A DNA stretch of 64,000 nt from a virus (Duplodnaviria; Heunggongvirae; Uroviricota; Caudoviricetes). The DNA is taken from IMG/VR virus record IMGVR_UViG_646311923_000012; one strand, given 5' to 3'. Made by a program: the position numbers. Every line of letters starts with the position of its first letter. Position 1 is the first letter of the stretch. This document shows, one piece after another, positions 48,001 to 51,000 of the stretch.

Positions 48001-51000
48001 ATCGCCACATCTGGCAACAACAGTGACGGATACCCACCAATTTCCAGTGCCACAGTAACAGTAATCTTATCCGGGTAATTATTTATCCCTTTAACACCCA
48101 GTTCGTATTTTTTCTTCATCGCTTTACTCCCCCCGCGCCGCCTTACGACGGTCCTCTCTGATTTTGAAATACAGGTTAGTCAGATACGTCAGCAGGCCAA
48201 ACAGCAGACTCCCCAGCACACCGATTGCCACCCACTGGGACGGAGAGACTTTGTCCAGCAGCTGCAGTAACCAGTATCCCGTCCCCACCGCTGACGTGGT
48301 GTATGACACACCTGTTGTGATTTTTTCCATCTGATGTATGTCTCCGTCACCGCCGACAGAAAATGAAAGTAAAGGAAAACAAAAAGCCGCCAGTGTCGCC
48401 CACTGACGGCCAACGCCGGGAGCCGTGATTATGGCATTCAGGCTCTGCTAAAAATGCCAGATAACATTCCGGCTCCCCCCCCTGATTCAGGTTATAAATG
48501 ACACAATATCTTGACAACACCCATCACTGTCTGTCAGAAAATGTACTGCCAGATATAAGTATCATGTGAAACCCAACTATCCTTCTTAGCCAGTACTTCT
48601 CCGACGAAAGTCAGTACTGGCTGTTTTTTTATTATGCTGCCGGTGCATTTATCTCCAGCATCAGACTTTCTATCTCAACGCCATACGCTGCATTTTTTGT
48701 AACATCCGTCAGCGTCAGCGCATTCAGTCCCAGTGTCAGACTGTCTTTTATAACCTGGAATGCCGGGCCAGCCACTCCATTCAGTTTCGGAGTAACCGTG
48801 GCACCGCCGGCGGTGAACACCAGCTCCAGCGTCTGCCAGTCGTTACCGTAATCGCCGAACTCCCCCAGCTTCGTGTTTCCGGCTTTCCTGTGATGCATCA
48901 GATTCACCCTGCCGTCAGTGGTCTGAGTGAAGTACGACATCAGGAACGGATTACCGGTACCCGTCATCGCCACACCATCAGGAACGGGAGCATCCGTATA
49001 CAGATAAATCCCCAGCCCGAACTGATTGTTGGTCAGTGCGCCTGACAGGCGGAACTTACAGGTCAGTCTGCCGCCCTGTGTCAGCAGTAATTGCGTCATC
49101 CACCGGATGCGTCAGGGACCAGGTTTTATTGCTCTGCTTGGTGATCTTAAATACACCATCTGACAACTGAATTCCGCCATCCTTAATGCTCCAGCCCTGC
49201 GCAGCAGCCTCTCCGGCTGCCGGCAGCAGGGAGATTGTGCGAACGGACGTATCTGCAGACGGACCCGATGGCGTGTTGCCGCCGGGCGAGGGTTTGATTT
49301 CCGGTGCCTTACCACTGATGAAGGCTGAGGTGCGCCCGGCTGCGTTCAGAATAGCGGTTGCCAGACGATCCGGAATAATGCTCCTGCGCGCCCATGAACT
49401 GAAATGTGTCGGGCGGTTTGATGATACCTGGTTTCCATTCGTTCTCGATGCCGCACCGTAATATCCTGATGCCGGAATATCCGGATCTTCTGCCGGCGCG
49501 TTAGTGGCGGTATTGACGCCGTTACCGTCTGTCATGAAGGGCACAAAATAAACGCCCTCACTCTCCCTGTTTTTATACCCGCCGTACACGGTGTCGTATT
49601 GGGTAGCGTATGTATTTTTCCAGTAATACGTCGTGTCACCACAAATCCACGGCACATCTGCAGCGCTGCCACCATGGCACTGCGCGTTAAACACGGAGAG
49701 GTCAGCACGAAACTGTGTCAGCATGGCTGTAAACAGCGCAGGTTGCTGTGCGTGGGTGGCGGCGCTCATGTCAAACTCACCCTGCATCCAGCAGACGGCC
49801 AGCAGAACGTTTTTGGGATTTTTCTGCAATGCCGCTTTTGTGCGGGAAATCAGATCCTGATATAACGGCTTGCCCACCCCCCAGCGTGCCGAATCCTGAC
49901 TGGCCCCCGTGGACTCGCTGAATGTCCCCTCCGCGCCCTGGGTAAATGCCGAACCACCACGACAGCATGGTACCAGCAGGATCCCCGCGTTATTCGGGAT
50001 ATACGGGAGCAGTTTTTTGGCAATATGTAAACCCTGGCCGACACAGCCGTACTGCCCTTTGCTCAGGTCAGCCCTCGGATGATTCAGCGTACTCATATCC
50101 TGCACATCATGCAGACAGTGGTCAGCCGGAATAATATCGTTATATCTGCAGGCAGCCCCGCCCGGCGTCACTGTACTGCGGCGCGCCAGCTGTTTAATGC
50201 GCGGATCCGGAGCATCGTATGAATCCGGCAGCGGAAGCCCTTCACCGTAAGCCATGGCATTGGACTGCCCGGCCAGTACGATGACGTAGTACCAATCCGG
50301 CTCAGATGAAGGGCCGACCTGTGGCTCTCCTTCAATAGCCACCGCCTGCATCAGTGTGTACGGCGTAATGGCAACCGGTCCGCCGTATGGCTGCCAGCCC
50401 TCTTTCAGTTTGTGTGTCAGCTTTTCCGCAAGGTCTGACGGCGACGCCGCCCTGACAACATCATAATGTTTAATCGACATCGAATTTCTCCCGTGTAGAG
50501 GAACAGAGTTAAAAAGCCGGAAGCGGAATCAAATCACAGGATGACCATCTGCCAGTGGCTGGTCGTAAAAAAAAGGCCGCGCCATGCGCAGCCGAAAATA
50601 AAGGGATAACGATGATAGTTTGAGAAAAACAGAAATAACACTTTTGTGGCAAAGCATGGTGCCGGGTGCCTCCCGGTGAATTCAGTATCAGCACCTGAAT
50701 CCGCGATTACCCCATATTCCTTCTTGCTGATTGCCCCACCGCACAGGGGGATTCACCATGCAGAAGTGTTTTTAATAAACAGCAAACAAAAAAATCAAGC
50801 ATTATGCAGGCTGTTTCTTTTTATCACCGGCCACAGCAATACCATAATGCCGCAGACCAGCACCCCATCCGCCAGCACCGACATGATTCTGCTGGTGAAA
50901 TCCACCATCACCACCAGAAACAGCAGGAGTGCAGCCACAGTCAGGCGCAGTTTTACCGTCACAGGTAATTCTCCAGACGAAGACCCAGAACACCGGCAAT

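What the first reader, a model, noticed from the sequence alone, without database searches (positions are those of the whole stretch)
48520..48630. Candidate antisense small RNA in the nanS-holin intergenic region
All surrounding genes are minus-strand, yet the plus strand carries a promoter-like CTGTCA-N17-TATAAG (48531-48559) and, ~60 nt downstream, a strong intrinsic terminator (10-bp stem plus T7, 48588-48630). This predicts a ~65-70-nt plus-strand transcript antisense to late read-through transcription just upstream of the lysis cassette, and it could modulate lysis timing.
Basis: inference. Interest (0 to 1): 0.5.

Follow-up and report, generated by a model that had tools for sequence, protein, structure and literature searches.

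The report
Known prophage small RNA PasA
The flagged hairpin ends a real but already described small regulatory RNA gene (PasA family, also called EcOnc51) that lies backwards between the sialate esterase and holin genes of Shiga-toxin-type prophages, so the finding is a correct rediscovery and not something new.

Summary
The plus-strand hairpin with its T7 run (48587-48630) is real, stable and kept by compensatory changes. It is the terminator of a PasA-family sRNA gene. PasA was defined in EPEC E2348/69 (Pearl Mizrahi 2021) by northern blot, RNA-seq, Hfq dependence and RIL-seq. Its EHEC homologue is the Hfq-CLIP cluster EcOnc51 (Tree 2014), and its distribution was surveyed by Zhu, Shabalina and Storz (bioRxiv 2026). 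The published PasA probe and sequence fragment match this hairpin in E2348/69, phage 434 and H-19B. The gene has the same position and orientation there: between nanS-p and the pinholin gene, on the opposite strand.

The mapped 5' ends of PasA and PasC both fall on window C48546, upstream of the proposed TATAAG, which is not conserved in expressed homologues. The likely promoter is an invariant TTGACA (48511-48516) followed by TGTCAGAAAAT (48532-48541). This predicts an 85-nt RNA (48546-48630), not 65-70 nt.

The published function is Hfq-dependent pairing in trans through a seed in the 5' arm of the terminator stem. Control of lysis timing by cis-antisense action has not been tested and is geometrically unlikely, because the overlap lies 216 nt from the holin start.

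The window carries a rarer allele: two seed changes, one of them compensated, and no tandem second module. Verdict: already known, low interest.

The parts
48511..48516 (+). Probable -35 hexamer TTGACA of the sRNA promoter
   Evidence: A perfect consensus hexamer. It is invariant in every locus obtained independently of the pattern: E2348/69 PP2 and PP5, phage 434, H-19B, 2B8 and Sakai Sp12. The diverged second module has it too. Its function as a promoter is inferred from geometry relative to the mapped 5' ends; it has not been tested.
48532..48541 (+). Probable extended -10 region TGTCAGAAAAT (TG-n-CAGAAA with an 18-nt spacer, or GAAAAT with a 19-nt spacer)
   Evidence: Invariant across the homologues. 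It lies 5-6 nt upstream of the published 5' ends of PasA and PasC, which map to window 48546. Inference.
48546..48630 (+). PasA-family sRNA gene, predicted 85-nt transcript
   Evidence: It is 82% identical to E2348/69 PasA and 88% identical to the Sakai Sp12 copy under EcOnc51, with no gaps. Both ends are transferred from PMC8550237 table S6 (PasA 743499 to 743415) through the alignments. The exact 85-mer occurs 11 times in the sampled loci, and alleles at least 99% identical occur in 70 E. coli records.
48587..48623 (+). Terminator stem-loop (11-bp outer stem, internal loop, 3-bp inner stem with a GAAA loop)
   Evidence: Folding results are. The 9-bp core is conserved and three pairs show compensatory changes (C-G to U-A in the window lineage; A-U to G-C and C-G to U-G in the PasC lineage). 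With the 3' partner slid by 1-3 columns, the paired fraction falls from 81% to 23-56%.
48589..48598 (+). Seed-equivalent segment GCCAGUACUU (published PasA seed GCCAGCACCU), in the 5' arm of the terminator stem
   Evidence: The seed comes from PMC8550237 fig. S5 and is discussed in the Zhu et al. preprint. The window allele differs at 2 of 10 positions.
48624..48630 (+). T7 tract: transcript 3' end and presumed Hfq-binding U-tail
   Evidence: Read directly from the sequence. The published PasA 3' end falls on the last T of the equivalent tract.
48654..48664 (-). CUGAUGCUGGA in the 3' end of the nanS-p mRNA, 22 nt before the stop: the homologue of a published PasA RIL-seq target site
   Evidence: PMC8550237 table S7 lists this exact site in E2348C_0688 and a one-base variant in E2348C_1246. 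It is present in the window. The predicted seed duplex for the window allele is -10.4 kcal/mol, similar to E2348/69. That is weak evidence.
48632..50480 (-). nanS-p (SASA family sialate O-acetylesterase), frameshifted here; the upstream neighbour in the late direction
   Evidence: ORFs are. The gene is annotated in homologous loci. A 2-nt deletion at 49086/49087 distinguishes it from an intact 1851-nt homologue.
48124..48330 (-). Class II (pinholin, S21/933W type) holin gene; the downstream neighbour in the late direction
   Evidence: The ORF is.
48385..48411 (-). Late-sense terminator-like hairpin (11 bp, then UUUUUGUUUUC) 55 nt upstream of the holin start; part of the same conserved intergenic block
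   Evidence: Found by the scan and the fold. It is annotated as a terminator in the phage 434 record. The 215-nt block is found only in the phage records that also carry the sRNA.

Best explanation
Window 48546-48630 (+) is an allele of the PasA sRNA gene, a 'moron'-type gene of lambdoid and Stx-type prophages. It sits between the sialate esterase gene nanS-p and the pinholin gene and is transcribed convergently to the late operon. It most likely has its own sigma-70 promoter: TTGACA at 48511-48516, then an 18-19 nt spacer containing TG, then CAGAAAAT. Transcription starts near C48546 and stops at the hairpin-T7 terminator, giving an 85-nt RNA. The hairpin and U-tail also form the Hfq-binding module. 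By homology with PasA, the RNA is stabilised by Hfq in lysogens. It pairs in trans with mRNAs carrying CUG-N-UGCUGG-like sites, using a seed in the 5' arm of the terminator stem. One such site is in the 3' end of the adjacent nanS-p mRNA.

Shown here: sequence homology, synteny and orientation, the terminator structure and its covariation, conservation of the promoter block, and presence of the nanS target motif.

Taken from the literature for homologues: expression, size, Hfq dependence and RIL-seq partners.

Inferred: that this allele is expressed, that the 5' end is a primary start, and what its targets are, given its two seed substitutions.
For: 1. The published PasA northern probe GCCAGCACTGACTTTCGGTGGAGAG is the reverse complement of the hairpin loop and 3' arm in E2348/69 (exact). 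The published PasA fragment (fig. S5) reads ...GAGCCAGCACCUCUCCACCGAAAGUCAGUGCU..., which is identical to E2348/69, phage 434 and H-19B and aligns without gaps to the window.
2. The window has the same neighbours and the same orientation.
3. EcOnc51 (Hfq CLIP) maps onto the homologous module in Sakai Sp12.
4. The PasA and PasC 5' ends, determined independently, map to the same base, window C48546. The upstream TTGACA...CTGTCTGTCAGAAAAT block is invariant.
5. The hairpin has z = -4.0 and compensatory substitutions.
6. The element occurs in 691 of 5426 complete E. coli genomes, with a median of 5 places per positive genome. In 697 of 699 records the match covers at least 80% of a query that includes the promoter block. 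Among 185,579 species representatives, E. albertii was the only non-chance hit. This agrees with the distribution reported by Zhu et al..
7. PasA abundance is strongly reduced in the hfq comparison (log2FC -2.8) and northern blots show Hfq-dependent stability.
Against: No expression data exist for this exact allele. Its seed differs from the published one at 2 of 10 positions (GCCAGUACUU against GCCAGCACCU), so its targets may differ. The -10 element is poor by consensus (3-4 of 6) and the generic promoter scan did not list it. Zhu et al. state that the mature 5' end is produced by cleavage of a longer transcript, which would place the true promoter further upstream. The MEME motif behind the seed is only marginally significant (E = 0.024), and a seed inside a terminator stem is unusual. 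No regulatory outcome, such as a change in protein or mRNA level of any target, has been published for PasA in the library searched.
Confidence: 0.85

Rival explanations
1. One reading: the RNA acts in cis as an antisense RNA against Q-dependent late read-through transcripts. This could be by RNase III cleavage of the duplex or by transcriptional interference between convergent polymerases, and would modulate holin expression and lysis timing.
For: The gene lies inside the late transcription unit on the opposite strand, so the RNA is fully complementary to 85 nt of the nanS-S spacer of the late mRNA. The arrangement is conserved in phages and prophages. RIL-seq records late-sense RNA from the PasA-holin spacer in lysogens (the pasA.E2348C_0689.IGR entry).
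Against: The overlap ends 216 nt upstream of the holin start and does not touch its ribosome binding site. Two late-sense terminator-like hairpins lie in between and are better candidates for controlling entry into S. The published data show Hfq dependence and many trans partners. In Sakai Sp4 an IS629 insertion has removed module 1 next to nanS, and in E2348/69 PP5 PasC is followed by IS elements with no holin annotated in the stretch examined. The RNA genes therefore persist, and PasC is expressed, away from any holin. No lysis phenotype has been reported.
Confidence: 0.08
2. The hairpin is only a structural or terminator element, such as a bidirectional terminator or insulator at the end of nanS-p, and no functional RNA is made from this allele (a decayed copy).
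For: The hairpin abuts the nanS stop codon, with 1 nt between the T-tract and the stop. nanS-p itself is frameshifted in this window, so the locus shows some decay. The seed carries substitutions.
Against: Read in the nanS direction the hairpin has no U-run after it. The promoter block, RNA body and terminator are all intact. The stem substitution is compensated (T-A for C-G), which argues for selection on the RNA structure. The identical 85-mer recurs in many genomes. In two-module loci the PasA hairpin is 150 nt away from the nanS stop and still ends an abundant RNA.
Confidence: 0.05
3. The 85-nt species is not a primary transcript. It is processed from a longer plus-strand RNA that starts upstream of 48511, as suggested by Zhu et al., so neither the reader's promoter nor the TTGACA block is the promoter.
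For: The statement in the Zhu et al. preprint that northern analysis suggested cleavage from a longer transcript. The -10 element is weak.
Against: Table S6 of the original paper attributes the longer 236-nt form to 3' read-through to the next terminator, with the same 5' end. A perfect -35 with suitable spacing sits just upstream of the 5' end. The same geometry recurs in the diverged second module, whose Hfq-CLIP cluster (EcOnc52) starts 4-5 nt after its AAAAAT even where module 1 is absent.
Confidence: 0.12

Closest known systems
PasA (pathogenicity-associated sRNA A) of EPEC E2348/69, and its variants PasA-2 and PasA-3 (Pearl Mizrahi et al. 2021, PMC8550237; Zhu, Shabalina and Storz 2026 preprint)
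   Same: Same position (nanS-p / sRNA / class II holin) and same orientation. Same promoter block, same length (85 nt), same terminator architecture and loop (GAAAGUC). 82% identity with no gaps; 88% to the O157 Sp12 copy, which by its 5' half is probably the preprint's PasA-2 (my assignment).
   Different: Fifteen substitutions relative to PasA. Two are in the published seed (C to U at stem position 7, compensated by G to A; and C to U at position 10), and there are loop changes (ACC to GAC). The locus also lacks the tandem second module that follows PasA in E2348/69, phage 434, H-19B and Sakai Sp12, so the RNA ends right at the nanS stop, as PasC does.
EcOnc51 and EcOnc52, Hfq-CLIP clusters in EHEC O157:H7 Sakai (Tree et al. 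2014, PMC4104026, Table S2)
   Same: EcOnc51 (Sp12, 2237479-2237555 +) covers the homologous hairpin and 3' half of module 1. It lies between holin ECs_2261 and esterase ECs_2262, antisense to both.
   Different: EcOnc52 (Sp4) maps to the second, diverged module (66-nt RNA, hairpin AGCCAGCG...CGCUGGCU), not to the module present in the window. Neither cluster was characterised beyond the CLIP table.
PasC of E2348/69 prophage PP5
   Same: Same promoter block and 5' end, single-module architecture, and a T-tract abutting the nanS stop as in the window. It is a recognised paralogue of PasA.
   Different: Only 73% identical. The hairpin is of the module-2 type (AGCCAGCGUCC/GGGCGCUGGCU), the RNA is listed as 79 nt (78 by its coordinates), and the seed region differs.
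AsxR and AgvB anti-sRNAs (Tree et al. 2014) and HnrS (EcOnc10-12; Poudyal et al. 2026)
   Same: These are also short Hfq-binding sRNAs encoded as morons in the late regions of EHEC and EPEC lambdoid prophages. AsxR is also antisense-oriented, 3' of stx2AB.
   Different: No sequence or Rfam match: RF02702 and RF02703 were not hit at E <= 1. HnrS lies about 3.2 kb away beyond the lysis cassette in Sp12 and is absent from the window. Their mechanisms differ: sponging of GcvB or FnrS, and repression of hha.

Membership tests
PasA/PasC sRNA family (EcOnc51 class) | Nucleotide homology over the full length of the published RNA | tested here: met
   70/85 identical to E2348/69 PasA and 75/85 to the Sakai Sp12 copy, with no gaps. 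The published probe and sequence fragment were located in the homologues.
PasA/PasC sRNA family (EcOnc51 class) | Position between the SASA/nanS-p esterase gene and the class II holin-lysozyme cassette of a lambdoid prophage, on the opposite strand ('> < >') | tested here: met
   The same arrangement is seen in E2348/69, Sakai Sp12, phage 434, H-19B and PV15-279. It is described.
PasA/PasC sRNA family (EcOnc51 class) | [quoted passage not shown] | tested here: met
   Covariation in three pairs of the 9-bp core.
PasA/PasC sRNA family (EcOnc51 class) | Conserved seed GCCAGCACCU overlapping the 5' arm of the terminator stem | tested here: inconclusive
   The window has GCCAGUACUU (8 of 10). CCAGUA can still pair with UGCUGG through one G-U pair. 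The predicted duplex with the nanS site is -10.4 kcal/mol, against -10.3 for E2348/69. The energies are small and the seed itself rests on a weak motif.
PasA/PasC sRNA family (EcOnc51 class) | Expression as a discrete Hfq-stabilised RNA of about 80-85 nt with Hfq-dependent RNA partners | not testable with these tools
   Known only for homologues.
AsxR/AgvB anti-sRNAs (Rfam RF02703, RF02702) | Match to the covariance models (conserved 42-nt 3' region) | tested here: not met
   The permissive cmscan of 44000-54000 (E <= 1) gave no hit to either family. The only hit on the element was a chance match to Bacillus ncr982 (28.5 bits against a gathering score of 50, E = 0.73).
HnrS (EcOnc10/11/12) | Sequence identity to the 66-nt HnrS, located distal to the lysis cassette | tested here: not met
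   EcOnc10 lies at Sakai 2234239-2234287, about 3.2 kb from EcOnc51. BLAST of that region against the window found nothing.

The most novel reading that the evidence does not exclude
Besides acting in trans, the convergent sRNA gene may act in cis together with the late-sense terminators just upstream of S. In lysogens, PasA transcription and the RNA duplex it can form with leaky nanS-p read-through would help keep the holin silent. After induction, Q-modified polymerases would run over and occlude the PasA promoter, switching the sRNA off. A second possibility is that the window allele, with its changed and compensated seed and its lack of the tandem second module, has a target set different from that of PasA.
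Probability: 0.1. Interest if true: 0.5.

Novelty: already known. Interest (0 to 1): 0.18.

Why it matters
As a finding it matters little. PasA, EcOnc51 and PasC are published, with expression, Hfq-binding and interactome data and a dedicated 2026 survey of their distribution.

The result is useful as a calibration. Sequence reading alone located a genuine sRNA gene through its terminator and orientation, but it misplaced the promoter by about 20 nt and guessed a function the data do not support.

Some minor points may help people working on Pas sRNAs:
- The PasA and PasC 5' ends coincide with a conserved TTGACA/extended -10 geometry, which argues for a primary start.
- Most loci carry a diverged second promoter-plus-terminator module in tandem (EcOnc52, and the end point of the 236-nt 'minor' PasA form).
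- PasC and the window allele look like products of recombination or deletion between these modules.
- The window allele carries seed substitutions.

Tried and rejected
1. Rfam, permissive mode, over 44000-54000. No family covers the element; the ncr982 hit (E = 0.73) is chance.

2. I suspected that the newly published 66-nt multicopy prophage sRNA HnrS might be the second module, which is also 66 nt. This was rejected: EcOnc10-12 lie elsewhere and the HnrS region has no match in the window.

3. Unconstrained RNAduplex of the whole sRNA against the nanS 3' end was uninformative: -42.8 kcal/mol, with 19% of shuffles as good. I replaced it with a seed-level comparison, which is still weak.

4. 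TSS and Term-seq evidence for EHEC Sakai (Sy et al. 2020) could not be consulted, because no supplementary files are held. No paper in the library mentions EcOnc51 or EcOnc52 in its main text.

5. The promoter-core pattern scan of one genome per species returned 14 chance hits, in line with the roughly 13 I estimated from pattern and database size, plus Escherichia albertii. There is thus no evidence for the element outside Escherichia. The representative E. coli genome evidently lacks it.

6. Conservation of the -35 cannot be judged from the IMG/VR loci, because they were selected with a pattern that contains it. I relied instead on loci derived from BLAST and the literature.

7. I considered a bidirectional-terminator reading for nanS-p and rejected it for lack of a U-run on the minus strand.
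Full report
**Context.** The window around the finding is the late region of a lambdoid, Stx-type prophage read on the minus strand. In the late direction it contains:
- an STnc100-class RNA (50618-50790, 100.8 bits) with its terminator;
- the sialate O-acetylesterase gene nanS-p, split here into 49056-50480 and 48632-49099;
- a 301-nt spacer (48331-48631);
- a 68-aa S21/933W-type pinholin gene (48124-48330);
- a YdfR-like ORF, a SAR endolysin (47191-47724) and Rz/Rz1.

The finding lies in the spacer.

**The observation.** The plus-strand hairpin is real. Positions 48587-48597 pair with 48613-48623, with an inner GAC/GUC stem capped by GAAA, and T7 follows at 48624-48630. 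The MFE is -18.7 kcal/mol, z = -4.0, and none of 200 shuffles fold as well. In the nanS direction the same stem is preceded by A7 and is not followed by U's, so it is a terminator for plus-strand transcription only. They fall below the threshold of the consensus scan, which already finds about five sites per 5 kb in shuffled sequence.

**Identification.** BLAST of the spacer finds it in 34 phage records: 22 Stx1a-converting phages, H-19B, YYZ-2008, phage 434 and 2B8. It also occurs in about a thousand complete E. coli genomes. The phage 434 record already annotates terminators on this strand.

The literature search led to the Pas sRNAs. Pearl Mizrahi et al. 2021 (PMC8550237) defined PasA in EPEC E2348/69 from RIL-seq, RNA-seq and northern blots. 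Their table S6 lists PasA at NC_011601 minus strand, 743499 to 743415 (85 nt, major form) or to 743264 (236 nt, minor form). The orientation is '> < >' between E2348C_0688 and E2348C_0689, the probe is GCCAGCACTGACTTTCGGTGGAGAG, and a note reads 'homologues EcOnc51/EcOnc52'.

I fetched that locus. E2348C_0688 is the SASA esterase and E2348C_0689 is the class II holin. The reverse complement of the probe is the loop and 3' arm of the homologous hairpin. The window aligns to it without gaps through the RNA, at 82% identity, and at 88% to the Sakai Sp12 copy. The Hfq-CLIP cluster EcOnc51 of Tree et al. 2014 (Sakai 2237479-2237555 +) lies on the same module in Sp12, between holin ECs_2261 and esterase ECs_2262.

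The 2026 preprint of Zhu, Shabalina and Storz describes the arrangement pasD / esterase / pasA / holin-lysozyme. It also notes the kinship of PasD with STnc100, which matches the STnc100 hit upstream of nanS in the window. The element is not in Rfam 15 and is not annotated in the RefSeq genomes I inspected.

**Transcript ends and promoter.** The published 5' end of PasA (743499) is the C of ...AAAAUGUA|CUGCC.... The independently listed 5' end of PasC (1290909) is the same base in the alignment. In the window this is C48546, and the 3' end is the last T of the tract (48630), giving 85 nt.

It reads TAGAAG in the expressed E2348/69 gene and CATAAG in Sp12. Upstream of 48546 there is a perfect TTGACA (48511-48516) followed by CTGTCTGTCAGAAAAT. 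This can be read as an 18-nt spacer with a TG extended -10 and CAGAAA, or as a 19-nt spacer and GAAAAT. The block is invariant in all loci obtained without reference to it. In 697 of 699 E. coli records the match covers at least 80% of a 146-nt query that includes this block. That this is the promoter is an inference from geometry. Zhu et al. instead read the northern blot as processing from a longer RNA, although table S6 assigns the longer form to 3' read-through.

**Structure conservation.** I collected module copies from IMG/VR contigs, phages and genomes and aligned 17 distinct variants. The 9-bp core of the stem is kept in all of them. The compensatory changes are:
- C-G to U-A in the window lineage;
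- A-U to G-C and C-G to U-G in the PasC lineage.

Sliding the 3' partner drops pairing from 81% to 23-56%. These are few independent events, but they are enough to show that the hairpin is maintained.

**Mechanism.** For homologues the literature shows Hfq-dependent abundance (log2FC -2.8; northern blots), 41 RIL-seq interactions, and a target motif CUG-N-UGCUGG complementary to GCCAGCACCU in the 5' arm of the terminator stem. Among the best sites are the 3' ends of the two nanS-p paralogues. The same site, CUGAUGCUGGA, is present in the window 22 nt before the nanS stop, at 48654-48664 on the minus strand. The window allele has GCCAGUACUU. It can still pair through a G-U, with a similar small predicted energy, but target specificity may differ. 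No regulatory outcome for any PasA target has been published in the library searched.

**The cis-antisense idea.** The RNA is necessarily complementary to late read-through RNA. However, the overlap lies directly 3' of the nanS stop and 216 nt from the holin start. Two late-sense terminator-like hairpins lie in between (48473..48456, and 48411..48385 with UUUUUGUUUUC). The sRNA modules also persist away from a holin. In Sakai Sp4 an IS629 insertion has left only module 2 next to nanS, and in E2348/69 PP5 PasC is followed by IS elements. I rate a lysis-timing role as possible but unsupported.

**Architecture of the locus.** In E2348/69 PP2, Sakai Sp12, phage 434, H-19B, E. albertii and most IMG/VR copies, PasA is followed by a second, diverged module. 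It has the sequence TTGACA-N10-CTGTCTGTGAAAAAT...AGCCAGCG...CGCTGGCT-T7 and abuts the nanS stop. This module would encode a 66-nt RNA. The EcOnc52 CLIP cluster in Sakai Sp4 coincides with it, and there module 1 is absent. Its terminator is also where the 236-nt minor PasA form ends.

The window lacks this module, and the junction lies exactly in the shared GCTGGCT-T7 sequence. Two IMG/VR copies carry the window-type hairpin together with module 2, so a deletion by recombination between the two terminators is the simplest history. PasC combines a module-1 promoter and 5' half with a module-2-like hairpin. In the sample the counts are:

| Arrangement | Copies |
|---|---|
| PasA-type plus module 2 | 75 |
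| PasC-type, single module | 26 |
| Window-type, single module | 11 |
| PasA-type, single module | 8 |
| Module 2 alone | 8 |
| Window-type plus module 2 | 2 |

Alleles at least 99% identical to the window occur in 70 of 20,395 E. coli records, and the family as a whole occurs in 691 of 5426 genomes.

**Verdict.** The terminator observation is correct and the inference of a plus-strand sRNA is right. The promoter, the length and the proposed function are not supported. The element is an allele of a published sRNA family, so it is already known and of low interest.

Noticed in passing
Absent from the window (junction at 48623/48624); present for example in L003 2365-2515 (-), L004 2066-2185 (+), L005 2510-2610 (-): Most homologous loci carry a diverged second promoter-plus-terminator module in tandem between PasA and the nanS stop. 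It would give a 66-nt RNA and coincides with the Hfq-CLIP cluster EcOnc52 in Sakai Sp4, where module 1 is missing. It is also where the 236-nt 'minor' PasA form ends. The Zhu et al. preprint states that pasA copies do not arise by tandem duplication; this diverged tandem paralogue seems not to be discussed there. PasC looks like a module-1 5' half joined to a module-2-type hairpin.
   Followed up: partly
window 48385-48411 and 48456-48473, minus strand: Two late-sense terminator-like hairpins lie between the sRNA gene and the holin start. The stronger one (11 bp with 7 G-C pairs, then UUUUUGUUUUC) is 55 nt upstream of S. The whole late-sense spacer is unusually structured (z = -3.15). It is annotated as a terminator in phage 434. 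It may keep the lysis genes silent unless polymerase is Q-modified.
   Followed up: partly
window 49086/49087 (nanS-p, minus strand): A 2-nt (GG) deletion relative to an intact 1851-nt homologue (O157:H7 PV15-279) splits the esterase gene into ORFs 49056-50480 and 48632-49099. It is probably a pseudogene, or a sequencing error in a homopolymer.
   Followed up: yes
window 50567-50790, minus strand: An STnc100-class RNA (Rfam RF02076, 100.8 bits) with a strong terminator (50593..50575 plus T8) lies just upstream of nanS-p. This is the position of PasD and EcOnc13, the short leader-type RNA upstream of nanS-p. It shares the 5' GCAUGGUGAAUCC and the terminator with PasD2 but is not BLAST-similar overall.
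   Followed up: partly
window 51563-51636 and 51740-51812 (minus strand); 51841-52554: Two tRNA genes of the kind carried by Stx-type prophages upstream of the late genes are followed immediately by an AraC-family regulator ORF, not by a Q gene. In PV15-279 three tRNAs and then Q follow. The homology to that prophage stops at window 51813, so the prophage seems truncated or mosaic here.
   Followed up: no
window 1021-2488, 4373-6077, 53707-56080: Further segments 89-94% identical to the TerB/tRNA and RusA/DUF968/hok parts of the same kind of prophage. The 64-kb window therefore holds more than one lambdoid prophage segment, but only one PasA promoter module.
   Followed up: no
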